Shown here piece after piece: positions 4,771 through 63,404 of a stretch of DNA of 64,000 nucleotides. The position numbers were made by a program, and so were the translations under genes. The first letter of the stretch is position 1. Each line of letters opens with the position of its first letter. The stretch is from Naegleria gruberi. Lineage: Eukaryota. Location of the stretch: NCBI GenBank assembly GCA_000004985.1, contig GG738867.1. One strand, 5' to 3'. The notes below the pieces were generated by a model. It saw only the letters and a list, made by a program, of their open reading frames with translations, searched no databases and had not been told where the DNA came from.

Positions 4771-6548
4771 ATGTCATTTATTAATAATACCGAAACGTCT
4801 GACCATTATTCATCATCAGAGTCATCATCCTCATGTAGTAGTTGTATAATTTCTGCTACAACACCACCATCATGGGATAAATATCCAAGGAAAGTTTTCA
4901 CATCCAAGAAGAAGAAGGATTCAACAACTCTTTCAAAAATTGAAATTTTATTAGAAAAAGGTGAAGGTTTATCTATTAGAAAGTCATCAAAGGCTACCAG
5001 TTCTCCATTTGTTGTACTTTCCATGTGTCACGATGCATTCGTCTCACAAAAACGATTAGAATCGTCAAATGTAAAGAATTCACTCGATCCAATGTGGAAT
5101 GAAGTTTTTGAATTTGAAGTTTCTCCAAGTGTAAAGGAAAAGGGAAAGGTTGAAGAAATTTTATCTATTCAAGTGTGGCACAAGGGTGTTTTTAATAATG
5201 GAGTGGACACTTTCATGTAAGTTTTTTTGTTATTCGAAATATTTCGGATAATTCTAAAATGATGTTGTGAAATAATGATATTAATTTGTAGGGGTGCTGC
5301 CAATGTTCCACTTGTTCATTTGGTAGAGAATCATCTTCATACAATGGTTCTCGATTTAATTGGTGTTGAAAGAGGTAAAATTCATCTTCATATCATTCCA
5401 AGAGGATTTGGATTTAAAACAATTGATGAAAAGAATACCTATGTTTTGAATGGTACTAAACAAAGTGCAGTTTTCCAATTGACTAATTCAGATGTTTTGA
5501 GAATTAAAGAAGCTAGTGCTGGAATGATTAGTGCTGAAGTTTCTGTTGATACAAAGAAGAGATTAAGAAAGATGCAACAATATAAAATTGTTGAAAAATT
5601 ACAAAAGGGTGGTTTTGGCACAGTTTTTAAAGGTATGTTCTTGATTCTTATCAATTATTCAATAATTTGTTGACATTTAAATTTCTCATTATTTCAGTAA
5701 TTGATTTGGAGGACAAGACATCAACTCCTGAAAAACCAAATTACAAAGCCATGAAAAAGGTTAAATGTGATACAGATTATGAAGCCAATCAAGCCATTCA
5801 AGAAGTTTGGTATATCAGAAATTTAAAGAATCAAAACTTGGCCTCCTACGATGACATGTTCTTGGAATTTACAGAAGATGAAAATACTAAAGAGATTGCA
5901 TTCAATGTCTGCTTTGTCATGCCATACTATAAGGATGGAGATTTGGATAATTTGATTTTAAAGAGAAGACAACAACGTAAATTCTTCTCTGTTCATCGAT
6001 CCATTAGTTACATGCTTCAAATGGCTAAGGGTATTGAGTTTTTACATTCCAAGAGAATTATTCACAGAGATTTGAAACACAAGAATGTCTTTTTAACAGA
6101 TAATTACAATACTTGTAAAATTGGTGATTTTGGTTTTTCTAGATCAATTAATGAAAAATCACTTGCTTACACAACACTTGGTACTACGAATTATATGGCT
6201 CCTGAAATTGGTGTCAAGACTAGTGGACAACAAATTAATGGTTATACATTCTCTGCTGATATTTGGAGTTTTGGAGTAATGTGCTATGAATTATTGACAC
6301 TCAATTGTGGTGTTAAAGGTTTTTCACATTATACCAAAGCTTTGGCTAATTTTGAAAAGTATGTGGAAAAGATTAGTGAAGATATGCGTAAGATTTATGC
6401 TAAACAAGATGATGTTGTGCAGTTTGTTTTGGCAATGTTAAAGGTAAACCCAACTGAAAGATTATCAGCTGAGGAATGTGTTGAACAATTAGAAGTTCTT
6501 TTACAAAAGTACGAAGAAACAGCAACACCATCTGTATCTCAACAATAA
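4771..6548 (+). CDS. C2-domain-containing Ser/Thr protein kinase; 3 exons (4771..5216, 5292..5632, 5698..6548)
   Basis: The introns are 5217..5291 (gtaagt…tttgtag) and 5633..5697 (gtatgt…atttcag); both keep the frame. Exon 1/2 encode a C2-like domain (…DPMWNEVFEFEV…). Exon 2/3 carry the kinase Gly-loop GGFGTVFKV and AMKKV, then HRDLKHKNVFL, DFG and APE motifs. The ORF-track start at 4732 is a GTG, so the first ATG at 4771 in aaaaaaATG context is used. Confidence 0.8.
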
Positions 6549-15598: not shown

Positions 15599-15679
15599 GC
15601 GGTCTTGACCGAGTGGTTAAGGTGATTGACTAGAAATCAATTGGGGAGACCCGCACAGGTTCGAGTCCTGTAGATCGCG
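15599..15679 (+). tRNA. tRNA-Ser (anticodon AGA), long variable arm
   Basis: The cloverleaf is: acceptor GCGGTCT/AGATCGC (one G-U pair), D-arm ACC-GAGTGGTTAA-GGT, anticodon stem ATTGA/TCAAT, loop CTAGAAA (U33, anticodon A34-G35-A36), a 15 nt variable arm, T-arm ACAGG-TTCGAGT-CCTGT, and discriminator G73. A TTTTTT run lies 5 nt downstream. Confidence 0.85.
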
Positions 15680-15817: not shown

Positions 15818-18654
15818 CTACTCAGAGAATAGTGAATAATTATTCAAGTCAAGAGTTTTACAAGCAAGTGATAACTCTTGTTGCTGGTTAAGAAGAGCAA
15901 TTTCGTCATTGTCTTTCAAATCTTCAAGACTGTGAATTGCACACAAGTTCTCTTTTAACCTTATAAACTCCAAGCTTCTGTCATTAAGCTTAATTTTCAA
16001 CAATTCTATCAAATCAGAAATATTTCGAATATTGAGAGAAATCGACACAACAGCTCCTAAATCACATTCGTATAAGTAAGCAAATATTCTTCTTACACGA
16101 TTTTGAAGTTTCAAATGTGGTACAATATTAGAAAGCTCAATGACACACGAACCTTCTGTTTTCATGGCCCAAAAAACTCTCGAATTGTTTTCTTCAACAA
16201 TCAGAGAGTAGTCAATTAGAGGAAGAACATACGAGTTCACAATTGCATAACAAAAACCACCTCCAGTAACTCCAAAACCAATTCTGTCAGTTATATCAAC
16301 AGGAGGAAGGTACTGTTTTGACATTTTTGTGCCATCGGATTTGCACTCAATAGTCATTAACCCAGTTCTCAAACAAAAGGAAATAGTTTTGTTTCTAATA
16401 TCATCTTTGTCAACGTTTTCGGATGTGCAACCCATGAACAAGAATTCCAAATTTCCTTTTCTTTCCAGTATTCCTAGCTCGATATACCCAATCGTGAACT
16501 TATTCAAGGAAGCATTCAATGGAATGCCATTAGTTGAAATGGACACTTTAGAACTGGATCCAGATTGGATAAATTTCTCATTGCTTGTGCTTTCATTCCC
16601 TTTCAGGGTCTGGTCTGTTAACTGTTGTGATACATTTTCTAAATAGTGGTGAATACTTATTCCATGTTTTCTCATCTCTAAGCAGGTGAAATTGCCATTT
16701 TCAATATCTATATCATGAGATACGTGATTTTCATTACGAAAACACTGGAAACAAATCTTCTTATTGCAAGTTTTACATACATAATGCCAAAAATTACAAG
16801 AGCAAGAGCCTAAACATGTCCCATAGTATGAAGAACTAATCAGAAGAGGATATTCTTGATTGAAATCTTCTAATAATTCCTTAATTCTTATAGCTAGCTC
16901 AATCTTCTTTTTAGCATTATCGTCGTTAGAGGTACGATATCTGTATATTGTTTCTTCTGCTCTGTAATTGAAACATGTTTGGAAAGTTTTTTCTAATTGA
17001 TGAGGTTGTGCCAACTCAATTGCTGATTTAGTGAATTCTATTTCAATACTTGAAATAAATGATGAAAGAACTTGGAAAGGAAGGTAAGGTATACACAAGG
17101 CAGCAATTTCCAACCACTTATTACAAGAAGGGTGCTCCCTCCACAATAGTACACATTGTGTAAGGAAATTTCTTTGCGCAAACAATTTACGTGCCTTAAA
17201 GCTTTTACATAAAAGATTCCATAAGAATTCGCCAATGAAACTCTTGTTGTTAGCCTTGGAAATCTTTGATTCCTCACAGAAAATTCGAAGATCTGAATCT
17301 AAGATAGAGGAAATAACAAGTTGGACTGAATTGTGACTATGTAAGGCTTTTGTAAGAATTTGAAGGATTAAGGAGAATTTTTCAGTTTCTTCACTTGTCA
17401 ATCTTTCAATATTCTTATTGAAAGAAGAAAATTGAGAGGCCACCATTTGAATTCCATCATTTTCACTGACAAAGGAGTTTAAATAATCCTTTTCATTAAT
17501 CCAACTATTGATAATATTTAAACTTCTAACTGAAATTTTCATTGATTTCATGCAAGCGGCTGACAACAAAGCAATAAATGAGTCGTTACATTTCGATATA
17601 TCATTATCATTCTTGTTTTCTATCATATTATCCCAGGTTGTAACAATTGGGTGTTGTAACAATTCTCTTGCTTCCAACCTGGAATCAGCATCGCAAACCA
17701 TCAACTTCATTACCTGCAAACTAGCTTTATCTGTCAAAAGTCTTGCAAGAATTTGTTGATAAGTCTTTACAAACCATTGATTACTTTGGACATTTATCAA
17801 CGAATTAATATCTAATTTTCCGTTTACCATTATTGCTAATTTTGCAAGGTTAGTTCTGTAATCTTTTTCTGGTAAACTTGCTAATACTTGGACAAAGATA
17901 ATTCCCAAAGAATAGACGTCCACTTTGGGAGTGTAGCTTTTTGTAAAAACTTCAGGAGCTTGATAGAAAACATCTCCAGCAATAGTTTTTGCCTTTGATT
18001 GATGAGCCTGTAATTGAGTGCCAACTCCAAAATCACCAATTTTAACTTCAACCTTATCCAATCCTTCCAACAGAGAATTTGTTAAAAGACTAGCATCATA
18101 TTTAACCATAATATTGTTTGGTTTTAAATCTTGAGTAAAATAGTTTTTTAAAAAGTTGATAAAGAAAACATACCTCTATGAATGATTTTCAACTCGTTCA
18201 ATTCTTTCAAGACATGTAACATTTTAATGAACCATTGGAAAGCAACTTTGGCAGAAACTTTGATATTTTCCTTTTTTAGTCGTTCTAAAATTTGATTCAA
18301 GTTTCCTTGACAAACTTCCATTCTAATACACAAAAACACCTTACTTATATCCTCTACTTTGGTAATTGGAGAAGTTTTCAAGAGTTTATAGTCATAAATC
18401 TTTACTATATTTGGATGTTCACATTCTTGAGCCAATTTAACTTCTTTTATAATTGAACTTGAATTTGTTTCAGACTCTTCAATAACTTTGAGTGCAAATT
18501 CTTCATTCGAATTAACGTCACGAATCAAATAAACAGATCCAAAATTACCACTTCCTAACGTATCAATCAGATAATACTTTTTATCTGCATAATTAATAAC
18601 CTTATAGGTTGATTTGGTGGTACTGGTCGACTCTTTTGATTTCGATAAACCCAT
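15818..18654 (-). CDS. Ser/Thr protein kinase with N-myristoylation-type start (MGxxxS) and B-box/ZZ-like zinc finger; 2 exons (18654..18174, 18129..15818)
   Basis: A 44 nt intron at 18130..18173 (gtatgt…ctcaag) joins …ELKIIHR|DLKPNNIMVKYD and restores kinase subdomain VIb. The protein carries GSGNFGSVY, ALKVI, DFG and APE motifs. Downstream of the kinase is a Cys/His cluster CLGSCSCNFWHYVCKTCNKKICFQCFRNENHVSHD. Total length is about 930 aa. Confidence 0.8.
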
Positions 18655-19000
18655 TTTTTTAATCTTAGTTGTTTAAAAATTTTTTCACGTTTTCACGTTT
18701 TGATTTTTAACAAGTTGAAAAATGGAAGATCTTTTAAATAATTTTTTGATATATTAAGGCCACAAAACTGAGCGTTGATACAATAAATTTCATTCGACAT
18801 CATGAACAAGATTGAAGTGTCCTTTTTTTAAAACGTGATTGACTTTTGACATGTTCTAAGTCATTGTTATTTTCATTAGTGATGACAGTAACCTTAAACA
18901 AAAAATACATATAGAAACGTCCCAAAGAAGACTTCACGTTTTCGTTTTAGAATGGTTAAATAGAATTAAATTGTCACAACAATTTTATCAATGATAAAAA
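18655..19000. promoter_or_regulatory. Putative bidirectional promoter between the divergent kinase paralogs
   Basis: A 346 bp AT-rich spacer separates the two divergent ATGs (18654 minus, 19001 plus). This is inferred only from the gene arrangement. Confidence 0.3.
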
Positions 19001-22000
19001 ATGGGTATTCTCAATAGCAAGGAAAGTCTTCCCAAGACTACTACCACCATCAGTAACACAATTGCAGAGATTGAAAAGAAGAAAGCTGTACCATCAAAAA
19101 AAGAAGAAACAGTTTCGTTTAGATGTTTCAATACAAATTGGTCTCTCATACGATCATTGGGAGAAGGATATTTTGGAAAAGTATATGAAGCAAAAGATTT
19201 GACTACTGGTTCTCAATTTGCTATCAAAATTGTGAGATTTGAAATTGCAAATGAGGAGTTAGCTCGAAGAGAAGTTGAATTTTCCAAGAATATTGATAGT
19301 TCAAACGTTGTCAAAATCTTTGATAGTGAAGTGATGGACAAGGATCCAACCACTGGTCTTCCATCGAATGGTTGCAAGTTTTTGGTTATAAAGATGGAGC
19401 TTTGTCAAGGAAACTTGAATGACATTCTAATTCAATTAATAAGTAGCAATCAAACTCTTAGAATTGATGTTGTTTTTGTTTGGTTTTTCAAAATGCTTGA
19501 TGTTTTGTGCGACTTTGAACAAAATAATTTAATTCACAGGTAAGTTTGAGCAGGTAATTGAAAGAAACTTGAATTGTTTCATACAGAGATTTGAAACCAT
19601 CTAATATAATGATAAAGTATGAAGGTTCTTCCCCAACAGAGTTTGAGAAAATTCAACTCAAGATTGGAGACTTTGGATTGGCAAAGAAAATGAATGGGAA
19701 CTATTCTAATGTTGGTACTTCAATATTTAAGGCTTTGGAAATTATTGAACAAGAGGAGTATGACACAAGAGCTGATGTTTATTCTCTTGGAATGATACTG
19801 TTGCAAGTTAGTTTATTGATTTCTGAGGGTACACTTGCTGAAAAAATGTTAATTATTGTATCTAAATATGAAACAGGTCCCTATGAAACTTCTTTATGGC
19901 GTATTTTACAAGATAACAAAAGATTGAATGAATTCTTTGGAGATGTTTTTTATGATTTAACTGATCCAGGTACAAAAGAACTACTCAAACAAATGATTTG
20001 TGTTGTTGAAAAAAGATTGAAAGCTTCAGAGTTACAAAATCATCCAATTGTAAAGACTTGGAAGAAAGTATTAGCTTATGGACCAAACCATAGAGAAATT
20101 GATTTGTTTGAGTTCAATAACGCACCAAACGGTAATTTGGTAATCCTTGGGCTCGTTCCATTGATCAAGATTGTTTCCAAGCCGTCTGTAGTTTTAAGGG
20201 CCTTGTATGTTCTAGAAAGAATATTTTCTGATAGTACTAAACTGAAAGAGAGATCAGAGTATTTTATTATTAATGGTGGTATAGAGGTGGTTATTGGATA
20301 TGTCAATTCACTTATTAAAGCACTAGTACCAAACGATAAGTCATCCAATTCGAAACCAAAAAAGGAGTTGATTGAAGAGATAAAATCACACACTATTAGT
20401 AGTTTGATCACCACTAATGCATCTATTAATGACAAGGTTAAGACAGGATGGAATTTGTCAGTCAAATTAATTGCTTCAATATTGGAAAATAGTGACAATT
20501 TACCTTCTGAAAGACTTCGATTATTGAGTGCATCACTTAGAAGAAGTGGATTGTTTGATCTAATATCATCTTTGAAAAAGATTGATGATAAGGAAAAGCT
20601 GGCAGTTGAAGCAGTTGTTCCTGTTGTAAAGATTATCTCATTCATGTGTAAACACAATATAAGCGTAAGAAGCAATTATGCAAAGAAAAGTTTCATCGTT
20701 GCACTTTTGTCATTATTGGTATCAGATGGAATGGACGAGTTGAAAGGTGACATTATCGAAACAATTGCTCTTGTTGTTCCTTACATTGATGGAAGTGATG
20801 AAAAACTTGAGTTACTTGGTTTTTTTAAAAACTACTTTTTGTCACTTTCAATGCAAATGGCTGAACCTAGCTGTTTGATAGCTAATGAACAAGTATTTGA
20901 ACAATACATTGACAAACAAGATGATCCCGTTGAAGGGTTATTATTGAGAAGCAAACTTGCAATGATGGTTTCAGATTACAAACAAATTTTAAGTAGATCG
21001 TACTATGGATTATGCTCTAATGTTGATAGATCAGATGACCATATCAAGATGTGGTGGTTTAGATGTAAAACATGTTTTGCAAATGATCCATCTCTTGGTT
21101 GCTGTTTAACATGTGGCTATAAATGTCACCTTGGTCATAATTTGTCTCTTCAATATTCATCATTTTATTGTGACTGCCATGTAGGTGAAGAAACAATACA
21201 AGGACACACATGCCAATGCAAACCTAGTCAGGGATCCTTATTACCTCACTTGTCCTCCTTCAAATTGACTAGTCCAATTTCCGGTTTTGTTTCTGAAGGA
21301 TTACTTCTTTGTTTAAAGGAACAGGATCAAGACAACCATTCTGATTTTACAATCATTAATTTTGGGGAAGAATCAACAGCAATCTCCAACCAACCAATAG
21401 TTTCTCTCAATAAGGTAAACGAAGCAGAAAGAGAAGAAACCATTGGCTATTTTTCAATTAAAGTCCTTTCCACTGAGTTCGACGACTTGAAGATTGGTAT
21501 TAGCACTTCAGATTCCAAGTCCATAGAAAAAATTACTGAGATAGACACAAATAACAGTATTACATATGATTTATCAAATGGTAATTTAATCATTGGAAAA
21601 AACTCTTTCGTTTATGGACCAGAGGGATACTCAACGTGTACTGTTGGCTTTGGTATAACAAACATGGGTAGAATTTATGTCATGTTTGATAGTATGGCAC
21701 TGCCACTAATCACTCATCAAACGCTGAATGATGGAAATGTTTTTGCTGTTATCAGAGTGGCTGGAACAAGTATTCTGAAATTCTCTTGTGATACTCCGAT
21801 CATAGACGCCCCACAAACTATTTCTTTTACATTAAAACCAGTGGTAAAAAAGGAGGTTGACCTTGATACCAAAGCTAATGACGAGATTGTGAATACTGAA
21901 TCAAATGTTAGAGTTGAATACTCTGTTTCTCAGAATACCTCTGCTAAAGAACAGTTGAACAGCAACTCTTCATCAACAGGTCCGATTATTGAGAAGAAAA

Positions 22001-22227
22001 TCAAGGTAAGAAGATACGGAAAGAGCAAGGGAGGAGTTTTACTTACTTTAACTCCTGATCATAGTAAAGATACAATTCTTGATCTTGCAAGAACGAAACT
22101 GAAAGAGCCATCAATTGTTTCTCTTAGAGACGAAGAATGGATTGAATATGATTGTTTCCAAGATTTTGTTCAGAATAATGTGTATCAGGCGTTGACCAAA
22201 GAAGATGAAGATAAGGAAGAGTTGTAA
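19001..22227 (+). CDS. Ser/Thr protein kinase paralog (MGxxxS start, kinase, B-box/ZZ-like Zn finger, long C-terminal domain); 2 exons (19001..19539, 19587..22227)
   Basis: A 47 nt intron at 19540..19586 (gtaagt…atacag) joins …NNLIHR|DLKPSNIMIKYE. The same intron position and phase are found in the divergent neighbour. The Cys/His cluster is CKTCFANDPSLGCCLTCGYKCHLGHNLSLQYSSFYCDCH. Total length is about 1059 aa. Confidence 0.8.
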
Positions 22228-27943: not shown

Positions 27944-28203
27944 TTTTTTGATGAATTAAATAGGAAACTAATGTAATTTAATAAAATTGCAACAAAACGT
28001 GCATCTCTTTCAGAAATGGGATTTTTCTCTTGGATGTATTGAGACGATTAGCCAAAAAGAAATACTACTAATCAACCATTCTTCTGTATTTCTAATATCT
28101 CCATAAAAGGTCCATACTTATTCGAAAGCCCACTTTAATTTTCATTGTAATCTCAAAGATTTTCTCAAATTCTTCCGTTCTGATTTTGGAAATAGTAAAA
28201 AAA

Positions 28204-30186
28204 ATGCAACAACACAACAATAGCAGACGTCTCGATATTCTCTTGTCCCATTTATTTCCCTCCTCATCATCATCATCATTAACGGTGATGCGATCAGGAG
28301 ATGAAAATTCTCAACTCTATTCGAATACTTGTTCCGGTCAATCAAATAATAATGATCTTTCATGTGCTAAATGTACAGCATTTTCCTCAACACAATTCAA
28401 AGAGGAAATGATTAATAGATATTATACTCCTGAACAAGCAAAGATAAGACAAGATATTTATGATTTGGTTAAGGATAATCCACTCTTTGAAAGAAAATAC
28501 GGACTTTCAAAAGAACAAGAAAGACAATTGACTCATGATCGTGCTGTGTATATTATTCAGAAATTGAGACCTTTTGAACTTGAACATTTTAGAACTGATC
28601 CAAAGAGATTCTTTACTTTTTTAGATACTGTTAATAATATTGATTTTGGAGTTGCTGGAAGAAGTATGATTCATTTTGGGTTGTTTGGTGGATCTGTTCT
28701 TTATTTTGGAACTGAAAAGCATAAACAATTCCAAGATAGAATTGTTAATGATTTTGGAAAGATTTTTGGCATGTTCTGTATGAGTGAAATTGGACATGCT
28801 TCAAATGTACAACAAATTGAAACACTGGCAATTTATGATCATCAATCCAAGACAATTAATATTCGTACACCAAGTGATTCTGCTGTTAAGGTTTGGAGTG
28901 GAGGTGCTGCTCAATTTGCTCAGTGGGCTGTTGTGTTTGCTCAATTGGTTGTTGATAAGAAGTGTGGAGTTCATGCATTCTTAGTTCCAATTAGATCTGA
29001 AAAGGATCATTCAGTACTTCCTGGTATTAGAATCAGAGATTTGGGATCCAAGATTGGACTCAACTGTTTAGATAATGGAAGAGTTTGGTTTGATGTTAAA
29101 ATCTCAAAAGACTTGATGCTCGATAGATTTGGAACCATTGATGAAAATGGTCAATATAAGACATCAATTCCAGATGAAAGTGTCAGATTCTTAGCTCACG
29201 TTCAAGCATTGCTCATTGGTAGAATCATGACTGCCAGTTCAAGTTTGAATGCTCTTAAAATGGCTCTCGAAATCACTTTGAAGTATGCAGTTCACAGAAG
29301 GCAATTTGGCCCAACTAATTCAGGAGAGGAATTGCAAATTATCAATTATCTCAGTTATCAAAGAAGATTGTACCCATACCTTGCATTTTCCTTTGTCGCT
29401 CACTTCTCTGTTGAGGATTTGAAGAGAAAGTATGAAACAAATTCTGACTCCAAGATGATCCACACATTGGCTAGTTGTCTCAAAGCCAAATGTAGTGATA
29501 TCTCATTGCTAGGTTGTCAAGAATGTAGAAAATCCAGTGGTGCTCAAGGTTTCCTCAGTGCAAATAGAATTGGTGAAATGAGAGATATTGCCGATGCCTC
29601 AATTACATATGAGGGAGACAATAATGTTCTCTATCAAACAGCTTCTAGAAACTTGGTTAGAAGAAATACCAAAATACCATCTTTGGAAAAATTAACCTCT
29701 CTTCAAGATTTGGCTCAATTGCAAAAACTATTCGAATTCAGAGAGGCCACTATTGAAAAGCAGTATAGAGAAAAATTGGGTAAACTCTCTAAAACTCTTT
29801 CACCTTTCGAAGCTGCCAACAAAACTCAAGATCTTGCTCTCAAGTTAGGAAATGCTTATATTGAAAATAATATTATCAAGGTATTCCTACAAGAATCTTT
29901 GGGTAAATTATCTGAAAGAAACAAGAACTTGACTGAAATATTTACACGATTGGCTCTTTTATTAATTTACACTTGGATTCAACAAGATGGTTTCTTCCTT
30001 CTCCACGATTTGGTATCTAAGGAACAATATTCTCAACTTGACGATTCTATCAACTCAATTTGTCAATATTTAACTCCTTTCATTCCAACATTAGTTAATA
30101 GTTTTGGATTCCCTTCATTCTTGACCAACGTTGTTATGGGACCAAATCTTGTTGAAAATATGTCATACGACAAGATTTACAACTAA
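28204..30186 (+). CDS. ACOX: Acyl-CoA oxidase (peroxisomal, ACOX family) with N-terminal PTS2-like nonapeptide
   Basis: ACOX family blocks are present (…CMSEIGHASNVQQIETLA…, …AFLVPIRS…, …KYAVHRRQFG…). RLDILLSHL at aa 9-17 fits the PTS2 consensus R-[LVI]-x5-H-L. There is no C-terminal SKL. The ORF-track start at 28186 is a TTG, so the first ATG at 28204 (aaaaaaaATG) is used. Confidence 0.8.
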   Translation: MQQHNNSRRLDILLSHLFPSSSSSSLTVMRSGDENSQLYSNTCSGQSNNNDLSCAKCTAFSSTQFKEEMINRYYTPEQAKIRQDIYDLVKDNPLFERKYGLSKEQERQLTHDRAVYIIQKLRPFELEHFRTDPKRFFTFLDTVNNIDFGVAGRSMIHFGLFGGSVLYFGTEKHKQFQDRIVNDFGKIFGMFCMSEIGHASNVQQIETLAIYDHQSKTINIRTPSDSAVKVWSGGAAQFAQWAVVFAQLVVDKKCGVHAFLVPIRSEKDHSVLPGIRIRDLGSKIGLNCLDNGRVWFDVKISKDLMLDRFGTIDENGQYKTSIPDESVRFLAHVQALLIGRIMTASSSLNALKMALEITLKYAVHRRQFGPTNSGEELQIINYLSYQRRLYPYLAFSFVAHFSVEDLKRKYETNSDSKMIHTLASCLKAKCSDISLLGCQECRKSSGAQGFLSANRIGEMRDIADASITYEGDNNVLYQTASRNLVRRNTKIPSLEKLTSLQDLAQLQKLFEFREATIEKQYREKLGKLSKTLSPFEAANKTQDLALKLGNAYIENNIIKVFLQESLGKLSERNKNLTEIFTRLALLLIYTWIQQDGFFLLHDLVSKEQYSQLDDSINSICQYLTPFIPTLVNSFGFPSFLTNVVMGPNLVENMSYDKIYN

Positions 30187-30875: not shown

Positions 30876-33800
30876 ATGTCTGTCACCAAGATGGATCTCT
30901 CCATTGCGGAGAAGAAAGCCTACGACTTTCTTATTCGTCAGGAAGAAGCCAAACGTTGGATTGAAGAACTTATCCAAGAAAGTCTGCCTCCAGGCACTGC
31001 TAACTTTGGTGATAACTTGAGAGATGGTATTGCTTTGGCCAAGTTGGGTAAAATCTTTGCTCCAACAGCAATTAAGAAGATTAACACTCCAAAGTCAGGA
31101 AGTGTTTTGGAATTTATGGCTGTTGATAACATTTCCCAATTCTTTGAAGCCTGTAAGAAGGTTAATTTCCCTGATCACTATATTTTTGGTATGTGTTATA
31201 ATAGTAACAGCTTTTATTCTAATCTATTATGTTCATGTTGTTATTCAACTCGTATGATGATGATAATTTGTTGTTATTCCTTCCCTCGCTTTTTTCATCA
31301 AATCACAAAAAATAATCATCACAAAAATAATGTTCTTCCTCCTATGATGATGTTGATGGTGAATGATAATGTTATTGTTGCTTGTTCTTGATAATAGAGG
31401 TTACCGATTTGTGGGAATTGAAAAACGTTTGGAAAGTTGTTCACTGCTTACACACACTCTCCCTCCACTTGTATAGAAATGGCTTGGCCATTAGAATGCA
31501 AAACTTGCAAAAGGCTAACTTGAAGTTCTCCCGTGAAGAAATTGAAAAGACACAAAAGTTGATTGAAGACATTGCAGATAATGCTATGGCTTTCCCAGTT
31601 GATATTGAAGAAGTTGGTGAAGAAACAGATTCATCCATTGATGATGTTTTAGAAGATTTGGCTGATCCATCAATGTGTGATGCCGATGGTGAAGGTCTTA
31701 ACAAGGCAACTGCTGGTGTCGAAGCTAAATTTGTTATTACTGCAAGAGATTCTGATGGTGAAGTTCTCAAGGAAGGTAACGAATCATTCAAGGTTACCTT
31801 GTACTCTGTTAGTTTGCTGGGTCAAGATGAAAATGCTGAACGTGTTGTTATTCAAGCTAATGTTTCGAATAATGGTGATGGTACTTATGCTGTTTCTTAT
31901 ACTCCTGAAAAGGCTGGTGAATACAGAATGGAATTGGTTTTGTTCGATGAAGAAACTCAAGAAGAAGTTGATCAATTATCAAAGGTCTCTCCACAAAACG
32001 TTACTGTTTCTTCCAATCCAACCTCTGATCCATCAAAGAGCGTTTTGGATGGTTCTGGTATCGGTTCTGCTGTTGCTGGTGTTAAATCCGAATTCCAACT
32101 CACTTCATTCGATAAGTTTGGAAACCAAGGACGTGGAGGTGAAAACTTTAATGCTACTCTCACTTTCGGATCTGAAGTTGTTCAATGTCATGTAGATGAT
32201 TTGAATAATGGTAAATATCGTTTCTCATACACTTGTCCAAAGAGTGGTGAATATACTTTGACTGTCAAGTTGGGTGATCACGTTGTTGCTACCAAGTCAG
32301 TCATTGTTAAAGATGCTGGTATTTCTGATCCATCCCGTACTGATTTCAGTGGTATTGATTCTGTTCTCGATAAGAAGGCTGGTGAACTCTCTGCATTCAC
32401 TATTCTTGCTAAGGATACTCACGGTAATGATCGTTCATCAGGTGGTGAAAAGTTCTCTGTTACTCTCATTAATGGAAGTGAAGTTACTGAAGCTAGTGTT
32501 AAAGATACCAATGATGGTAAATACCATGTTGAATACACTCTTAACACAAGTGGAAACTACAAATTGCAAGTCAAACTTGGTGATGCTGTTGTCACTGAAA
32601 AGGATGTTCATATTCATGATACTGGTGTCACTGATCCATATCAAACTACTTTCAGAGGTGAAAACTATAAGCAATTCCCAGCTGGTAAGCAAATGCAATT
32701 CTTTGTTGAAGCTAGAGATAGATTCGGAAACAAGCGTGAAAATGGTAGTGATACTTTCATTCTCCAATTCACTTCAAAGGCCACTATGGAAACTGTTTCA
32801 AGTGATTTGATCAAATTCAATGATTTGGGAAGTGGTGAATACTCATTCGATTACACTATTGAACAATCTGGTGAATATGGTATGGAAGTTTTGTTGAAGG
32901 AATCTGCTGACACCCGTTCTGAAGGTGGTAGTGAAGCTACTTCATTGTTGAAGGCTTTCTTGAGAAAGTACAAGTACACCAATATTCCAGGATTCCCATC
33001 CACTACATTTGTTGATGATAGTGGTGTTACTGATCCACAAAAGACTCAATTTGCTGGTGACGGTGTTTCTAATGCTGTCCAAGGAAAGGAATCTGAATTT
33101 GTCATCAAGACCAGAGACTCATTCAACAATGTTCGTCAAACTGGTGGTGATAATGTTGAAGTCGTTGTTTCTAATGAAGCTAGAAAGATTGATCTCCCTG
33201 CTTCTGTCAAGGATAATCAAGATGGTACTTACACTGTTACTTATACTCCAAAGGCCTCTGGTAAGACTAAGCTCCTCGTTAAGATTAATGGTGTAGTTGT
33301 TGAAAGTGATATCTTGAAGGGTGGTGTTTTCGTTTCTCCTCCAGATATTAGCGATACTTCAATGCTCGATACTGTTTTGGATCATGACTTGTTATCTGCC
33401 TTGTTGAATGCCTTCAAGGTTGAAAATGATTCTGATAACTTGATCGAAAAGATTCAAAAGCTCCGTGAAGAACTCATTAAACAAATTCGTGAGAACACTC
33501 GTATTGAAGAAAATGTCAGAGAAAAGGACAGAAAGATTTCACTCCTTGCTGAAAATAGATATGATGCCGAAACAATTTTGAATCAACGTGGTGGTATTGC
33601 TGGTTATTTCCAACGTAGAAGACAAGAAAAGATGGCTACTGCTAATGATGATAAGAAGGAAAAGTTCAATATTAAGGATTACGTTGATCACTACAGCAGT
33701 TTGTTCTACTTGTTGCAAACTAATCCAAAGTATTTGGCTAAGTGTTTGTTCTTGGTTCCATCTCGTGATATGGACCAATTCATGCAAACTGTTACATTGA

Positions 33801-35635
33801 CTTTGTACGGTTATGCCTTCTCTCCTCGTGAAGAATATTTGATTTTGAGTTTGTTTAATGAAACTCTCCACCTCGAAATTCAAAACAGTTCAATTGATAA
33901 CTTCTTGAACAACAACCCAGTTTTGATCAAGTTGGTTGTTAACTATTGCCATGAACGTATCCAAGGTAAACAATTCTTGCAAAAGGTTTTGTTCGATAAG
34001 ATCTTGGAACCAATCATTGAAGAAAAGGATTTGAACTTGAATTTGAACGCTGTTACTATTTTGAAGGAAAGAATTTCCCAACAAGAAGTTGAAACTGGTG
34101 TTAAGAGCGATATCAACATTAAGGATATGACCTATGAAAAGGCTATGCAAGATGAATACGTCAGTAAGCTCGTCCAACAACGTACCAAAAAGATGATTGA
34201 CATTTGTCAAGGTGTTTTGGATACATTGAATGACAACATTAACGAATTGCCATACGGTTTGAGATATATCTGTAGACAATTGAAGGTCATGTTGGGTAAG
34301 AAGAATCCAAATGCTACCGAAGAAGATATTAACCGTGTTGTTTCATATTTATTGTTCTTTAGATTCCTTAACGGTCCATTCTGTGGTTGTGACTCTTACA
34401 ACTTGACTAAGAAGAAGATTTCTGCCAGTATGAGAAATAATTTGGCTTGGATTTCAAAGGTTTTGATGCGTGTTTCTACATTCAAAGAATTCGATAAGGC
34501 TTATGACATTCACTTCTGTGTTGTCAATGAATGGATTCAACAAGCTATTCCTACTTTCGTTGAAAAGTTCATTAAGCCAGCTATTGTTATCCCAGAACCA
34601 GAAGAACAATTGGGTGTCCATCAATTTATTGAACTCACTCAAAAGAAGTCACCTTCTATTACTATTACCTTGAACGAAATTGCTCAAACTCATGGTTTGT
34701 TGGCTAAGTTCTTGAACAGAATTGCTCCAGACGAAAAGGATCCATTGAGAGAAGTTTTGAGCAACTTCAAGGACATGATTCCAGAACAAGTTGAATCAAC
34801 AAAGAATGAAGAAATCAGTTTGCCACTCCAAGTTAGAACTAACATTGAAAACTTGGATTTGGAAGTTAAGCCAGAACAATTGTACGAAATTGCTAAAGAA
34901 CACTTCCGTGGTATTTTACGTGTCATTACTCCACAACAATTGGGTGAAAATGTTGCTGAAACTGTAGATAAGGCTGAAAAGTATGCCGAAGAATTGATCG
35001 ATAGTTCTAAACAAGAAGCTGATGGTATTCAATTGAAGAGAAAGGTTGAAGAACTTAGAAAGGCTCTTCCAAAGTTGGCTGATGCTGAAATTCTCTCAGC
35101 AGCCAACGGTTATAGAAAATTGTTGACTGATATTACTAAGGAAATTCAAAACAGAGGTGAAGTTAGAAAGAGACAAGTTCGTGAATTGGAACGTTTAACC
35201 GAAAGTTTGGAATCCCTCAAGGAACATCAAAACTTCCTCAAGGAAAAGGACAAGAGTTTGGACGACTACGTCCAACAAACCCTTCGTAACTACTTTGAAG
35301 GAAAGAACAAGAGAAAGCAAAAGTCTGGAAAGAAACAAGTTTACAAGTTCAGCTACTCTCAACTTTCAGAGAAGTATAAGGTTATTGCCGAAATGACAGA
35401 AGGAGGTGCTTTGAAGAAGGGTATCAAATTCCAAATCTCTATGGATGAAGCTAATCCAGGTTTCTTTACAGTTGAAGCTAAATTGGCTGGTGCATCACTC
35501 AAGACAATTAACTTGCGTCTTGATGAACTTTTGGACAAACGTGGCAGAGGTGAAGCTCTTCTCAAACTCGATGGTGTTTCACTCAATGTAAATATGACTA
35601 TTCACATGATGAATAAGCTTTTCGTTAGCAAGTAA
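30876..35635 (+). CDS. IQGAP-related protein: calponin-homology domain + ~8 filamin/ABP280-type Ig repeats + RasGAP-related domain + RasGAP-C; 2 exons (30876..31188, 31398..35635)
   Basis: A 209 nt intron at 31189..31397 (gtatgt…taatag) joins …PDHYIF|EVTDLWELKNVWKVVHCLHTLSLHLYRNGL. This matches the IQGAP CH-domain motif LFETVDLYEKKNMPRVIYCIHALS. The repeats are of the form G-x-G-L…A…F-x-I-x-T/A-x-D-x-G-N. The RasGAP-related domain carries …LRYICRQLKVMLGKK… and …YLLFFRFLNGPF…. Total length is about 1516 aa, with very strong codon bias. Confidence 0.8.
31650..33350 (+). repeat. Filamin-type repeat coding array (about 8 units of ~95 aa)
   Basis: The translation shows a recurring …SG-x-G-(L/V)…V…A…F-x-(I/V)-x-(T/A)-(R/K)-D-x-(G/F)-G-N…Y-x-(V/F)-x-Y-T-P periodicity. 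Confidence 0.6.
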
Positions 35636-45874: not shown

Positions 45875-45947
45875 GGGGATGTAGCTCACATGGTAGAGCG
45901 CTTCTTTAGCATGGAAGAGGTACGGGGATCGATACCCCGCATCTCCA
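45875..45947 (+). tRNA. tRNA-Ala (anticodon AGC)
   Basis: The sequence is GGGGATGTAGCTCACATGGTAGAGCGCTTCTTTAGCATGGAAGAGGTACGGGGATCGATACCCCGCATCTCCA. The G3:U70 Ala identity pair is present. The anticodon loop is TTAGCAT and the discriminator is A. A TTTT run lies about 7 nt downstream. ORF 45890..46078 is spurious. Confidence 0.85.
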
Positions 45948-47603: not shown

Positions 47604-47694
47604 TTTTTTCCTGATTATGAACTTTAAACTTTGCAAAACATTAGGAACTTAATAGCATTTGAAACATCAATTTAGAAAATTCAGTTACAAAAAA

Positions 47695-52793: not shown

Positions 52794-52874
52794 CGCAGAC
52801 TGCAGGATTCGAACCTACGAAGGTTTCCCCAACAGATTTCAAGTCTGTCGCCTTAACCACTCGGCCAAGTCTGC
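52794..52874 (-). tRNA. tRNA-Ser (anticodon TGA), long variable arm
   Basis: The minus-strand sequence is GCAGACTTGGCCGAGTGGTTAAGGCGACAGACTTGAAATCTGTTGGGGAAACCTTCGTAGGTTCGAATCCTGCAGTCTGCG. The acceptor stem is perfect, the anticodon loop is CTTGAAA and the discriminator is G. An oligo-T run lies about 8 nt downstream on the minus strand. ORF 52706..52897 is spurious. Confidence 0.85.
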
Positions 52875-58052: not shown

Positions 58053-58203
58053 TTTTTTTAATTGTTTACAATAATTACATCTTGATTTAAGATTGTGTAA
58101 TATATTGCATTTTCCTATTAAATTATATTTCATTAATAAAATCTTTTTGACCCAAATTCAAATTTCTGACCGTTACATAACAATTTGAAAAAAAAGTCGC
58201 AAA

Positions 58204-63169: not shown

Positions 63170-63404
63170 CGTTTTACTTGTTGAACAATTTTTAGGCTTT
63201 GAATAATGCAATTCTAATATTGTTGGCCAAGTGTTCGGAATAATTTAACATTTAACTCTTTCTACATTCAATATATTTAGAAATTATTTAACACAATTAA
63301 TTGGTGATTCATATTCGGGGAGTAGTTCTTCTCCCTGCAAGGTACAGCCTTCTTGTTTAACAACACAATTTTTAAAAAGAATTAAAAATCAAATTTTAAA
63401 TAAA

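What the first reader, a model, noticed from the sequence alone, without database searches (positions are those of the whole stretch)
15818..22227. Head-to-head pair of paralogous kinases with MGxxxS N-termini, conserved intron position and a B-box/ZZ-like zinc finger
The two divergent genes share a ~350 bp spacer. Both start with a myristoylation-type MG(L/I)(S/L)(K/N)SKES motif. Both have the kinase domain interrupted by a phase-matched short intron exactly between IIHR and DLKP. Both carry a Cys/His-rich finger C-terminal to the kinase. That points to a local inverted duplication with a shared bidirectional promoter. Kinases fused to B-box/ZZ-type fingers plus a ~500 aa C-terminal domain are an uncommon family.
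Basis: partly seen in the sequence, partly recalled or inferred. Interest (0 to 1): 0.6.

Follow-up and report, generated by a model that had tools for sequence, protein, structure and literature searches.

The report
Divergent pair of UBR-box kinases
Two back-to-back genes of the amoeba Naegleria gruberi are old duplicates that encode lipid-anchorable protein kinases joined to a zinc finger otherwise known from ubiquitin ligases that read protein N-termini, a rare and apparently undescribed combination whose function is untested.

Summary
The gene pair is real. Gene A (minus strand, 18654 to 15818, 930 aa) and gene B (plus strand, 19001 to 22227, 1059 aa) start 346 bp apart. Both begin MGxxxSKES and both have one short intron at HR|DLKP.

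Two details of the observation are wrong. The introns are 2 nt apart, in phases 1 and 2, so they are not phase-matched. The finger is a UBR box of the UBR4/BIG type, not a B-box or ZZ finger. It is complete in B and degenerate in A.

The full architecture is a myristoylation motif, a Ser/Thr kinase, an ARM-like solenoid, the UBR box and a SPRY domain, plus a beta-grasp tail predicted only in B.

A and B are collinear paralogues, but old ones: 25% identity and saturated synonymous sites. Each is closer to a Willaertia protein and to a metagenomic homologue than to the other. That metagenomic contig also carries a divergent MG-kinase start.

A keeps the conservative kinase; B keeps the conservative reader module.

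The spacer holds four copies of TCACGTTTT, the only copies in the 64 kb window.

The family is small (Heterolobosea, some Amoebozoa) and I found no paper describing it. The proposed function, membrane-tethered kinases guided by an N-terminus or peptide reader, is inference.

The parts
18174..18654 (-). Gene A, coding exon 1 (aa 1-160 plus the first base of Asp161). It starts MGLSKSKES.
   Evidence: ORF list and splice reconstruction. This is the first ATG of the open frame.
18130..18173 (-). Gene A intron, 44 nt, GTATGT..CAAG, phase 1 (AGA G|..|AT).
   Evidence: Removing it restores IIHRDLKPNN and a 930-aa frame. No RNA evidence is available.
15818..18129 (-). Gene A, coding exon 2, through the stop codon.
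18628..18654 (-). Gene A N-terminal MGLSKSKES, an N-myristoylation-type motif (Gly2, Ser6, Lys7).
   Evidence: Read from the sequence. An MG start with S/T/G at position 6 is present in all 7 family members that lack an N-terminal ZZ finger.
17645..18570 (-). Gene A protein kinase domain (aa 29-322, interrupted by the intron).
   Evidence: Pfam Pkinase 2.4e-44. The G-loop, VAIK Lys, alphaC Glu, HRD, DFG and APE motifs are all present.
16823..17653 (-). Gene A alpha-helical solenoid (aa ~320-596).
   Evidence: AF2 model, pLDDT 56-92. Foldseek matches designed armadillo repeats at ~5e-4.
16661..16822 (-). Gene A degenerate UBR-box-like finger (aa ~597-650). It keeps the CxxC..HxxH site and 4 of the 7 cluster cysteines. 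It has lost the Cys of 'CH', the second Cys and the Asp of 'CDC' (now CLE), and the terminal Cys.
   Evidence: Alignment with B and the family. Pfam zf-UBR scores only E 0.12. The only coherent PDB hits are PRT6 UBR boxes at E 0.06.
16130..16576 (-). Gene A SPRY-like beta-sandwich (aa ~679-827).
   Evidence: AF2 model. Foldseek matches Gid1 and Ash2L SPRY at 2.5e-4 to 1e-3.
18655..19000 (.). Shared 346-bp spacer between the two start codons (26% G+C), the putative bidirectional promoter.
18685..18701 (+). Two overlapping tandem copies of TCACGTTTT (18685-18693 and 18693-18701), 31-47 bp from the ATG of gene A.
18830..18838 (-). Third copy of TCACGTTTT, in inverted orientation, mid-spacer.
18934..18942 (+). 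Fourth copy of TCACGTTTT, 59-67 bp upstream of the ATG of gene B.
   Evidence: All four copies in the 64-kb window lie in this spacer (0.73 expected). A CG-containing 9-mer reaches 4 or more copies in 7 of 5000 shuffles of the spacer.
19001..19539 (+). Gene B, coding exon 1 (aa 1-179 plus two bases of Arg180). It starts MGILNSKES.
19540..19586 (+). Gene B intron, 47 nt, GTAAGT..ACAG, phase 2 (AG|..|A GAT).
   Evidence: Removing it restores LIHRDLKPSN and a 1059-aa frame. No RNA evidence is available.
19587..22227 (+). Gene B, coding exon 2, through the stop codon.
19139..20049 (+). Gene B protein kinase domain (aa ~47-334, interrupted by the intron). The catalytic residues are present, APE is replaced by ALE, and the activation loop is shortened.
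   Evidence: Pfam Pkinase 4.3e-37. Alignment.
20041..21006 (+). Gene B alpha-helical (ARM-like) solenoid (aa ~332-653).
   Evidence: AF2 model, helices 2-322. Foldseek matches designed armadillo repeats at ~2e-3.
21007..21225 (+). Gene B UBR box of the UBR4/BIG subfamily (aa 654-726). It has Cys656, CxxC, CxxC, C-H-x2-H, F-Y-C-D-C (Asp709) and C-Q-C.
   Evidence: phmmer against PDB: BIG 5e-8, UBR4 1.3e-5, FBXO11 1.8e-4. Pfam zf-UBR 3.5e-4 to 5e-4, which is below Pfam's own cut-off. Ligand positions were compared with the UBR4 structure paper PMC10687169.
21298..21795 (+). Gene B SPRY domain (aa ~751-916).
   Evidence: Foldseek: RanBP9/RanBP10 SPRY 5e-6, probability 1.0; also Gid1, Ash2L, HERC1 and TRIM SPRY. 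Pfam SPRY scores only E 0.07 in B itself but down to 4e-12 in family members.
21988..22215 (+). Gene B C-terminal small domain with beta-beta-alpha-beta-beta topology (beta-grasp/ubiquitin-like; aa ~981-1056), after a disordered linker.
   Evidence: AF2 model, pLDDT 72-83. Only sub-threshold Pfam hints exist in relatives: DCX 0.088 and ThiS 0.079. It is conserved in the Willaertia and L002 homologues. This is a prediction, not a match to a named family.

Best explanation
The window comes from Naegleria gruberi. Positions 15818-22227 hold two divergently transcribed, anciently duplicated paralogues of a small protist family of multidomain Ser/Thr kinases.

The architecture, shown from sequence or predicted fold, is:
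- an N-terminal MGxxx(S/T) myristoylation-type signal;
- a kinase domain that looks catalytically competent, loosely nearest to GCN2/PKR and NEK2;
- an ARM-like alpha-solenoid;
- a UBR box of the UBR4/BIG subfamily;
- a SPRY domain;
- in gene B, a disordered linker and a beta-grasp-like tail.

No E3-ligase catalytic domain is present.

Inferred mechanism: the proteins are tethered to a membrane by myristate. The C-terminal solenoid/UBR/SPRY module acts as a reader that docks a partner or substrate, through a free N-terminus in the UBR pocket and/or a peptide on the SPRY face. This directs or gates the kinase.

The two copies have diverged in complementary ways. A keeps the conservative kinase but has a degenerate finger and tail. 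B keeps an intact reader module but has the more divergent kinase. This pattern looks like subfunctionalisation.

The two genes are probably co-regulated. The 346-bp spacer carries four copies of TCACGTTTT that occur nowhere else in the window.

The duplication is old. The head-to-head arrangement may itself be conserved.
For: Organism:
- The neighbouring acyl-CoA oxidase ORF is 100% identical to N. gruberi XP_002677306.1.

Gene structures and paralogy:
- Gene models and splices.
- Collinear paralogy: BLASTP 3e-58 over 918 aa.

Domains:
- Pfam Pkinase scores 2e-44 (A) and 4e-37 (B), with all catalytic motifs present.
- B's finger matches BIG, UBR4 and FBXO11 UBR boxes at 5e-8 to 1.8e-4. All 2Cys+2His and 7Cys ligand positions are present, as is the F-x-C-D-C amine-binding motif described for UBR4 (PMC10687169).
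- zf-UBR is detected in 8 of 12 family C-termini and SPRY in 5 of 12.
- The predicted folds give SPRY and ARM-repeat matches for both proteins.
- A full-length Pfam scan found no RING, HECT, F-box or U-box domain.

Family:
- Members with the same architecture are Willaertia magna KAL9650163.1, the metagenomic gene on L002, Balamuthia and Luapeleamoeba.
- An MG start is found in all 7 non-ZZ members.

Age of the duplication:
- pS is 0.72.
- A+B is recovered as a sister pair in 0-0.2% of bootstraps.
- Similarity scores (tblastn; BLASTP for A-B) are A-Willaertia 310 bits and B-Willaertia 470 bits, against A-B 204 bits.

Complementary divergence:
- Kinase identity is 49% for A-Willaertia and 38% for A-B.
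- C-terminal module identity is 32-33% for B against Willaertia and L002, and 20-21% for A against everything.

Conserved arrangement:
- On L002 the B-like gene faces a divergent ORF, 141 bp away, that starts MGGNNTKPG.. and runs into a kinase G-loop (..KLGSGA) at the contig end.

Shared regulation:
- All 4 window copies of TCACGTTTT lie in the spacer.
- This is reached in 7 of 5000 shuffles. No other 346-bp stretch of the window has a CG-containing 9-mer three or more times.
Against: - No expression, splicing, lipidation, zinc-binding, peptide-binding or kinase data exist. Every functional step is inference from domains.
- B's zf-UBR Pfam score (20.5-21 bits) is below Pfam's gathering cut-off (25.2 bits). 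B's own SPRY Pfam hit is E 0.07.
- The AF2 models have modest confidence (mean pLDDT 67.6 and 64.3) and were built from alignments of only 12 and 10 sequences.
- FBXO11's UBR box does not bind N-termini (abstract of PMC5606531), so having a UBR box does not guarantee N-terminus reading.
- The L002 partner is only 58 aa long. Its best match to the family (Willaertia) is weak, E 0.006 in a database of about 280 proteins.
- In Willaertia the homologue is not in a head-to-head pair.
- The shared, near-identical intron site is absent from the four other family genes whose DNA was read. This argues for a younger, Naegleria-lineage duplication.
- The neighbour-joining result could be a long-branch artefact of the complementary fast divergence.
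- The motif was noticed by eye before it was tested.
- Neither protein is present in the two large protein libraries, so I could not see how, or whether, they are annotated.
Confidence: 0.6

Rival explanations
1. One reading: a fairly recent local inverted duplication produced two still-similar kinases that carry a B-box/ZZ finger and share a bidirectional promoter and a phase-matched intron.
For: The genes are adjacent and divergently oriented, and the start-codon context is identical: AAAAAATGGGT on both strands. Both have an intron at HR|D, whereas the Willaertia, L002, P0271 and P0130 genes have none there. The first nine residues are conserved.
Against: Overall identity is 25% and pS is 0.72. 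The introns differ by 2 nt and in phase, and their sequences are unrelated. The codons flanking the introns differ at synonymous sites, so there has been no recent gene conversion. The finger is a UBR box: B-box scores E 0.73 and ZZ gives no hit. Each protein is closer to foreign homologues than to the other.
Confidence: 0.2
2. Gene A is a decaying copy (pseudogene or pseudo-reader) kept only by chance next to the functional gene B.
For: A's finger has lost 3 of 11 zinc ligands and the pocket Asp. A's C-terminal 100 residues are not confidently folded. A's C-terminal module is only 20-21% identical to any relative.
Against: A has an uninterrupted 930-codon frame after one clean splice. All of its kinase catalytic motifs are intact. 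Its kinase domain is the most conservative of the pair, 49% identical to Willaertia's. The solenoid and SPRY folds are still predicted. The myristoylation motif is conserved.
Confidence: 0.1
3. The proteins are eIF2-alpha kinases, that is, stress-response kinases of the PEK family, with a novel sensor module.
For: The best database hits to B's kinase are PKR/PKZ-like, PERK and GCN2 proteins. A family profile scores GCN2 highest in the PDB, at 156.7 bits. A short insert between beta4 and beta5 and an L-x-I-x-M-E-x-C motif resemble PEK kinases (read from the alignment and compared from my own knowledge of the PKR, PERK and GCN2 sequences).
Against: The margins are small: NEK2 scores 147.6 bits, SLK 146.5 and PKR 143.7. 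With the single sequence, CDPK scores as well as PKR. The Amoebozoa members lack the insert. No test of eIF2-alpha docking residues was possible.
Confidence: 0.15
4. The UBR/SPRY module recruits the kinases into an E3 ligase complex as adaptor or substrate, rather than reading substrates for the kinase.
For: UBR boxes and Gid1/RanBP9-type SPRY domains are both known from ubiquitin-ligase assemblies (descriptions of the PDB hits). A ubiquitin-like tail is predicted in B.
Against: No ligase catalytic domain or known ligase-docking motif was found. This reading is equally untested.
Confidence: 0.15

Closest known systems
UBR boxes of UBR4/p600, plant BIG and FBXO11 ('subfamily 2' UBR boxes)
   Same: B's finger aligns over about 60-90 residues with BIG (5e-8), UBR4 (1.3e-5) and FBXO11 (1.8e-4). 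It has the 2Cys+2His site, seven cluster cysteines and the F-aromatic-C-D-C motif. In UBR4 the Asp of that motif binds the substrate's N-terminal amine (PMC10687169).
   Different: The host protein is a kinase of about 1000 aa with no E3 module. UBR4 and BIG are scaffolds of about 5000 aa and FBXO11 is an F-box protein. The position of UBR4 Phe1671 is His in B. A's copy lacks three ligands and the Asp. Binding is untested.
SPRY domains of RanBP9/RanBP10 and Gid1, Ash2L and HERC1
   Same: The predicted beta-sandwich of both proteins matches these structures: B at 5e-6 and A at 2.5e-4, both with probability 1.0.
   Different: Sequence identity is only 12-19%. No LisH/CTLH, SOCS box or RING/B-box/coiled-coil context is present. 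B itself is below the Pfam SPRY threshold.
eIF2-alpha kinases (GCN2, PKR, PERK) and NEK2
   Same: These are the nearest kinase domains by sequence. They share HRDLKPxNI, KIGDFG and an N-lobe insert.
   Different: The assignment is not discriminating, because the scores lie within about 10 bits of NEK2, SLK, ULK and CDPK. None of the regulatory domains of those families (dsRBM, HisRS-like, luminal domain) is present.
Willaertia magna KAL9650163.1 (hypothetical protein) and Balamuthia mandrillaris KAL6045647.1/KAL6060927.1 (annotated 'kinase that interacts with cdc31p')
   Same: They have the same architecture: MG start, kinase, solenoid, UBR box, SPRY and a C-terminal small domain. The Willaertia protein is about 30% identical to both A and B.
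   Different: The Willaertia gene is intronless and not in a head-to-head pair. The Amoebozoa members lack the kinase N-lobe insert and have a longer linker. None has been characterised; the names are automatic annotations.
Divergent (head-to-head) paralogue pairs with a bidirectional promoter, such as histone H2A-H2B pairs (from general knowledge)
   Same: Two related genes start less than 1 kb apart on opposite strands. Repeated sequence elements lie in the spacer, in both orientations.
   Different: Co-expression is not shown here. The products are signalling enzymes that are 25% identical, not stoichiometric partners known to assemble.

Membership tests
Eukaryotic protein kinase superfamily (Pfam PF00069) | Significant match to the kinase profile, plus the Gly-rich loop, VAIK Lys, alphaC Glu, HRD, DFG and APE motifs. 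| tested here: met
   A scores 2.4e-44 (152 bits) and B 4.3e-37 (128 bits), against a cut-off of 31.7 bits. All motifs are present in A. In B, APE is ALE and the rest are present.
UBR box (Pfam PF02207), gene B | A domain of about 70 residues with 11 Cys/His zinc ligands (subfamily 2: 2Cys+2His plus 7Cys) and significant similarity to known UBR boxes. | tested here: met
   phmmer against PDB: BIG 5e-8, UBR4 1.3e-5, FBXO11 1.8e-4. All 11 positions are present. Caveat: the Pfam score of 20.5-21 bits is below the 25.2-bit cut-off. Eight of 12 family members hit zf-UBR, the best at 3.5e-7.
UBR box (Pfam PF02207), gene A | The same as for gene B. | tested here: inconclusive
   Pfam E 0.12. PDB hits to PRT6 UBR boxes reach only E 0.06. 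Eight of 11 ligand positions are kept, and CDC has become CLE. A's finger is homologous to B's by its position in a collinear alignment, so it is a degenerate UBR box.
N-recognin (functional class) | Binding of a free destabilising N-terminal residue in the UBR pocket, coupled to ubiquitylation. | not testable with these tools
   The pocket Asp (Asp709) and the adjacent aromatic residue are present in B and absent in A. No E3 domain was found. Binding needs experiment.
B-box zinc finger (PF00643) and ZZ zinc finger (PF00569) | Significant profile match with the characteristic ligand spacing. | tested here: not met
   B-box scores E 0.73 in A and gives no hit in B. ZZ gives no hit in either at E up to 1. 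ZZ fingers do occur in the family, but at the N-terminus of other members: P0271, P0130 and the second L004 gene.
SPRY domain (PF00622) | A bent beta-sandwich of about 120-200 residues matching SPRY profiles or structures. | tested here: met
   At fold level, B matches RanBP9/10 at 5e-6 and A matches Gid1/Ash2L at 2.5e-4. By sequence B scores only E 0.07, but relatives reach 4e-12. The models have modest confidence (pLDDT ~60-84 in this region).
N-myristoylated proteins | Met-Gly start, a small or uncharged residue at position 3, Ser/Thr/Ala/Gly/Cys/Asn at position 6 and no Pro at position 7. Actual lipidation by NMT is also required. | tested here: inconclusive
   The sequence pattern is met by both (MGLSKSK and MGILNSK) and by all 7 non-ZZ family members. 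No NMT predictor or assay was available.
eIF2-alpha kinase (PEK) family | Kinase domain that groups with GCN2, PKR, PERK and HRI, has an insert between beta4 and beta5, and docks eIF2-alpha through helix alphaG. | tested here: inconclusive
   GCN2 is the top PDB hit for the family profile, but NEK2, SLK and PKR lie within 13 bits. A short insert is present in the heterolobosean members only. Docking was not testable.
Ubiquitin-like/beta-grasp domain (C-terminus of B) | beta-beta-alpha-beta-beta fold and a match to a beta-grasp family. | tested here: inconclusive
   The topology is predicted with pLDDT 72-83. Only sub-threshold Pfam hints exist: DCX 0.088 and ThiS 0.079. It is not confidently predicted in A.
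Bidirectional-promoter gene pair | Divergent transcription starts less than 1 kb apart, with co-regulation. | tested here: inconclusive
   The geometry is met: 346 bp between the ATGs. A spacer-specific repeated motif supports shared control. Transcription starts and co-expression were not testable.

The most novel reading that the evidence does not exclude
These proteins define a class of 'N-terminus-reading kinases'. A UBR box has been detached from ubiquitin ligases and fused to a membrane-anchored kinase. Proteins exposing a particular N-terminal residue, for example after proteolytic cleavage, would then be phosphorylated, or would switch the kinase on, instead of being ubiquitylated.
Probability: 0.12. 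Interest if true: 0.75.

Novelty: new variant of a known kind. Interest (0 to 1): 0.45.

Why it matters
All the UBR-box proteins named in the papers I retrieved (UBR1-UBR7, plant PRT6 and BIG) are ubiquitin ligases or ligase subunits (PMC10687169, PMC8346999, PMC11668491). A conserved family that puts an apparently complete UBR4-type box, plus a SPRY domain, behind a myristoylatable kinase has one clear implication. N-terminus or peptide recognition by this fold may have been re-used for phosphorylation signalling in free-living and pathogenic amoebae: Naegleria, Willaertia and Balamuthia.

If that is right, it gives a simple experimental handle: one small domain and one Asp residue. It also gives a second output for N-degron-like signals.

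The gene pair is also a tidy example of old duplicates kept head to head, with complementary decay of different domains.

If the UBR box turns out not to bind anything, the locus is just an unusual multidomain kinase pair.

Tried and rejected
- B-box/ZZ reading: rejected by the Pfam scan and the PDB matches.
- Word-indexed protein search with full-length B: it returned only kinase-domain hits. It found neither the protein itself nor the Willaertia homologue.
- The same search with a profile of the non-kinase region: it returned only one fragment.
- Exact look-ups of A, B, a neighbouring ORF and the N. gruberi ACOX gene in the contig index: all failed. I could not see the public annotation of this locus.
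- Two metagenome scans, one with the family profile and one with the 58-aa L002 partner: both found nothing.
- Cluster look-up of the L002 partner: not in the collection.
- dS dating: synonymous sites are saturated, so dS is not informative.
- The bacterial promoter/terminator scan of the spacer does not apply to a eukaryote and was ignored.
- A naive test of 'any 9-mer four or more times in the spacer' was not significant (156 of 2000 shuffles), presumably because of A/T-rich repeats. Restricting it to CG-containing 9-mers gave 7 of 5000.
- TCACGTTTT is not found upstream of the Willaertia or L002 homologues.
- Assigning the C-terminal tail to a named beta-grasp family failed.
- Literature searches for kinase plus UBR box plus SPRY, and for Naegleria plus zf-UBR, found nothing relevant.

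Full report
**What is there**

The region is eukaryotic: about 33% G+C, densely packed ORFs and short GT..AG introns. The window is from Naegleria gruberi. The ORF at 28186-30186 is 100% identical to the N. gruberi acyl-CoA oxidase-like protein XP_002677306.1/EFC44562.1. The N. fowleri and N. lovaniensis orthologues are 63% identical and Willaertia's is 51%.

Gene A lies on the minus strand:
- exon 1: 18654..18174
- intron: 18173..18130 (44 nt)
- exon 2: 18129..15818
- product: 930 aa

Gene B lies on the plus strand:
- exon 1: 19001..19539
- intron: 19540..19586 (47 nt)
- exon 2: 19587..22227
- product: 1059 aa

Each start codon is the first ATG of its open frame. Both sit in the same context, AAAAAATGGGT. 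The two ATGs are 346 bp apart.

**Checking the observation**

The head-to-head geometry, the MGLSKSKES and MGILNSKES starts, the intron at the HR|DLKP junction and the Cys/His cluster are all present.

Two details are wrong. First, the introns are not in the same phase. A is spliced AGA G|gt...ag|AT (phase 1) and B is spliced AG|gt...ag|A GAT (phase 2). The sites are therefore 2 nt apart, and the intron sequences are unrelated. Second, the finger is not B-box or ZZ. Pfam gives B-box E 0.73 in A only and no ZZ hit. It gives zf-UBR at 5e-4 in B and 0.12 in A.

Against solved structures, B's finger matches three UBR boxes:
- Arabidopsis BIG, 5e-8
- human UBR4, 1.3e-5
- FBXO11, 1.8e-4

**Paralogy and its age**

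A and B align collinearly over 918 residues (25% identity, E 3e-58). The similarity runs through the whole non-kinase part, so they are true paralogues. No third member lies in the window; the only other kinase, at 5667-6548, is unrelated beyond the kinase fold.

The duplication is old:
- The proportion of synonymous differences is 0.72 over all aligned codons and 0.67 in the kinase. That is at saturation, so dS cannot date it.
- Similarity scores (tblastn; BLASTP for A-B) are A-B 204 bits, A-Willaertia 310, B-Willaertia 470 and B-L002 500.
- In neighbour-joining trees of eight family members, A+B was a clade in 0-0.2% of 500 bootstraps. This held for the whole alignment, the kinase alone and the C-terminal part alone.

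The divergence is complementary:
- In the kinase domain, A is 49% identical to Willaertia and 44% to L002. It is only 38% identical to B, and B is 40-43% identical to everything.
- In the C-terminal module, B is 32-33% identical to Willaertia and L002, while A is 20-21% identical to everything.

This pattern could pull each fast-evolving half towards the base of a distance tree. I therefore do not regard the tree as proof that the duplication predates the Naegleria-Willaertia split.

**Evidence on the arrangement in other species**

An exhaustive HMMER search of 1.84 billion representative proteins, using B's non-kinase part, found 155 hits. Most are UBR-box-only proteins. Only a handful cover the solenoid-UBR-SPRY region. 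They are:
- Willaertia magna KAL9650163.1, 1105 aa
- a metagenomic gene on ENA contig L002
- two Amoebozoa, Balamuthia mandrillaris and Luapeleamoeba hula
- a branch that has an N-terminal ZZ finger instead of the MG start: P0271 from assembly GCA_016850925.1, and P0130

The arrangements differ between loci:
- The Willaertia gene is intronless, and its upstream neighbour is a same-strand transporter, so it is not paired.
- On L002 the B-like gene (38% identical over 713 aa, starting MGSSTSK, no intron at HRD) faces a divergent ORF 141 bp away. That ORF starts MGGNNTKPG... and reaches a kinase glycine loop (...YDIVRKLGSGA) where the contig ends. Its best match in my local set is the N-terminus of the Willaertia protein, but only at E 0.006.
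- On L004 two ZZ-type members lie in tandem on the same strand.

So clustering of paralogues recurs in this family, and a head-to-head MG-kinase pair probably exists in at least one other organism.

Against an ancient pair: of the six family genes whose DNA I read, only A and B have an intron at HR|D. That is most simply explained by a single gain before a Naegleria-lineage duplication plus a 2-nt slide. The alternatives are two losses elsewhere or two parallel gains. I leave the timing open and conclude only that the duplication is not recent.

**Domain anatomy**

Kinase. Pfam Pkinase scores 2e-44 in A and 4e-37 in B. The catalytic residues are intact in both. B has ALE in place of APE and a shortened activation loop.

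The family cannot be assigned to a kinase group:
- With a family profile, the best PDB scores are GCN2 156.7 bits, NEK2 147.6, SLK 146.5 and PKR 143.7.
- With B alone, CDPK, PKR and PERK tie.
- The named hits in the large library are mostly PKR-, PERK- and GCN2-like.

Solenoid. About 280-320 helical residues follow the kinase. In the models they match designed armadillo repeats.

UBR box. The UBR4 structure paper (PMC10687169, read) gives three defining features of subfamily-2 boxes:
- One zinc is held by 2 Cys + 2 His.
- Two zincs are held by seven Cys.
- The substrate's N-terminal amine is bound by Asp1715 and the backbone of Phe1713, within the F-F-C-D-C motif.

B has every one of the 11 ligand positions and F-Y-C-D-C (Asp709). 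A keeps the CxxC...HxxH site and four of the seven cluster cysteines. It has Asn for the Cys of 'CH', has CLE for CDC, and has no terminal Cys. On its own, A's finger finds only PRT6 UBR boxes, at E 0.06. So the 'predicted to bind zinc' test is passed by B and only partly by A.

SPRY. The predicted beta-sandwich of B matches the RanBP9/RanBP10 SPRY domains at 5e-6, and also Gid1, Ash2L, HERC1 and TRIM SPRYs. A's matches Gid1 and Ash2L at 2.5e-4 to 1e-3. Family members reach Pfam SPRY 4e-12 and zf-UBR 3.5e-7.

Tail. B, Willaertia and L002 share a C-terminal segment of about 75 residues. It is predicted as beta-beta-alpha-beta-beta (pLDDT 72-83), with only sub-threshold hints of beta-grasp families. 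A's tail is not confidently folded.

No RING, HECT, F-box or U-box domain was detected. The two models have mean pLDDT 67.6 and 64.3 and were built from shallow alignments. I rely on them for domain folds only.

**The N-terminus**

Both proteins fit the PROSITE myristoylation pattern. All seven family members without a ZZ finger start with MG and have S, T or G at position 6:
- MGLSKS
- MGILNS
- MGSSTS
- MGGNNT
- MGNSKT
- MGGLMG
- MGGKPS

The rest of the N-terminal region is not conserved, which points to selection on the signal itself. Lipidation is untested.

**The spacer**

The 9-mer TCACGTTTT occurs four times in the 64-kb window (0.73 expected). All four copies lie in the 346-bp spacer: two overlapping near gene A's ATG, one inverted in the middle and one 59-67 bp before gene B's ATG.

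I noticed the motif by eye, so I tested it more conservatively. A CG-containing 9-mer reaches four copies in 7 of 5000 dinucleotide-preserving shuffles of the spacer. No other 346-bp stretch of the window has such a 9-mer three times. An unrestricted 9-mer test is not significant, presumably because of A/T-rich repeats. The motif is not upstream of the Willaertia or L002 genes. It is a reasonable candidate for a shared, gene-specific cis element. That remains inference.

**How it most likely works**

- Shown: two intact genes, their domain content, their old paralogy and the spacer motif.
- Inferred from established domain knowledge: myristate anchors both kinases to a membrane. The solenoid, UBR box and SPRY form a protein-recognition module. 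In B the UBR pocket is intact enough to accept a free N-terminus, while in A it is not.
- Speculative: B supplies recognition, A supplies the more canonical catalytic domain, and the two are co-expressed and act together.

The rival readings are a recent duplication, a decaying gene A, an eIF2-alpha kinase identity and a role as ligase adaptor. They are weighed in the rivals section.

**Comparison with what is known, and novelty**

Every domain belongs to a known family. The combination does not. The UBR-box proteins named in the papers I retrieved are all ligases or ligase subunits: UBR1-7, PRT6 and BIG (PMC10687169, PMC8346999, PMC11668491). Four literature searches found no description of a kinase-UBR-SPRY protein. 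The homologues in public records are named 'hypothetical protein' or carry an automatic 'kinase that interacts with cdc31p' label.

I rate the locus a new variant of a known kind: a novel, conserved, narrowly distributed domain architecture. Interest is moderate because function is entirely inferred.

One oddity remains. Neither A nor B, nor anything more than 41% identical to them, is in the two large protein libraries, although the neighbouring N. gruberi ACOX is. I cannot tell whether the genes are missing from the deposited gene set or only from these libraries.

Noticed in passing
window 18685-18701, 18830-18838, 18934-18942: TCACGTTTT occurs four times in the window, and all four copies lie in the spacer between the two kinase genes. 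It is a candidate shared cis element with an ACGT core. It is absent upstream of the Willaertia and L002 homologues.
   Followed up: yes
window 15818-22227 (whole proteins A and B): The two paralogues show complementary divergence. A has the conservative kinase domain and a degenerate finger and tail. B has the conservative solenoid/UBR/SPRY/tail module and the more divergent kinase (ALE for APE, shortened activation loop).
   Followed up: partly
window 15818-22227: Neither protein, nor anything more than 41% identical to them, is in the 5.8-billion or the 1.84-billion protein library, although the N. gruberi ACOX gene 6 kb away is. The two genes may be missing or mis-modelled in the deposited N. 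gruberi gene set.
   Followed up: partly
L002 1-317 (ENA ERZ27315067, k141_1999614): A divergent ORF starts at 176 on the minus strand (MGGNNTKPG...KLGSGA) and is cut off by the contig end. It lies 141 bp from the start of the B-like gene. This looks like a second head-to-head MG-kinase pair in another organism. The spacer there has two copies of TTGTGATAAAT instead of TCACGTTTT.
   Followed up: partly
L002 ~2560-2590: The B-like gene on L002 is split into two called genes (754 + 261 aa) by a +1 frame change between the UBR box and the SPRY domain. It also lacks about 70 residues that B has there. The cause could be an assembly error, a small intron or a real deletion.
   Followed up: no
L004 6294-9284 and 12420-16129 (JGI 3300062526): Two ZZ-finger-type family members lie in tandem on the same strand, 3 kb apart (28-31% identical over their C-terminal regions). 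One of them (P0130) has HRN instead of HRD and lacks the glycine loop, so it is a likely pseudokinase.
   Followed up: partly
P0271 (L003 8001-11447), P0130, and L004 12420-13421: One branch of the family replaces the myristoylation start with an N-terminal ZZ zinc finger. In p62, the ZZ fold also binds N-terminal residues (mentioned in PMC10687169).
   Followed up: no
P0122 (1423 aa) and P0123 (993 aa), origin unknown: These proteins are built almost entirely of tandem UBR4-type UBR boxes. The search matched about 20 stretches in P0122 and 14 in P0123.
   Followed up: partly
P0148, P0149, P0160, P0161, P0185: These are UBR-box plus SPRY proteins without a kinase. Several come from very A+T-rich genomes. 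All end in a conserved Cys-rich C-terminus (for example CKCGKGKCIIF). The UBR-SPRY pair therefore seems to be a module of its own in protists.
   Followed up: no
window 15599-15679: A tRNA-Ser(AGA) gene lies on the plus strand, 139 bp beyond the stop codon of gene A. Further tRNA genes lie at 45875-45947 (Ala AGC) and 52794-52874 (Ser TGA).
   Followed up: no
L001 13319-20322 (Willaertia magna JBEGDK010000085.1): A 7-kb stretch of 9% G+C with no called gene lies directly downstream of the Willaertia homologue.
   Followed up: no
window 45960-47636, 56475-58133, 53953-55764, 59525-63211, 31382-35635: Other genes in the window: two DUF4116-repeat proteins, an animal-type haem peroxidase, and a Dicer-like protein (helicase, PAZ and two RNase III domains). 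There is also a large ORF whose translation looks, by eye and untested, like filamin repeats followed by a RasGAP/IQGAP-like C-terminus.
   Followed up: no
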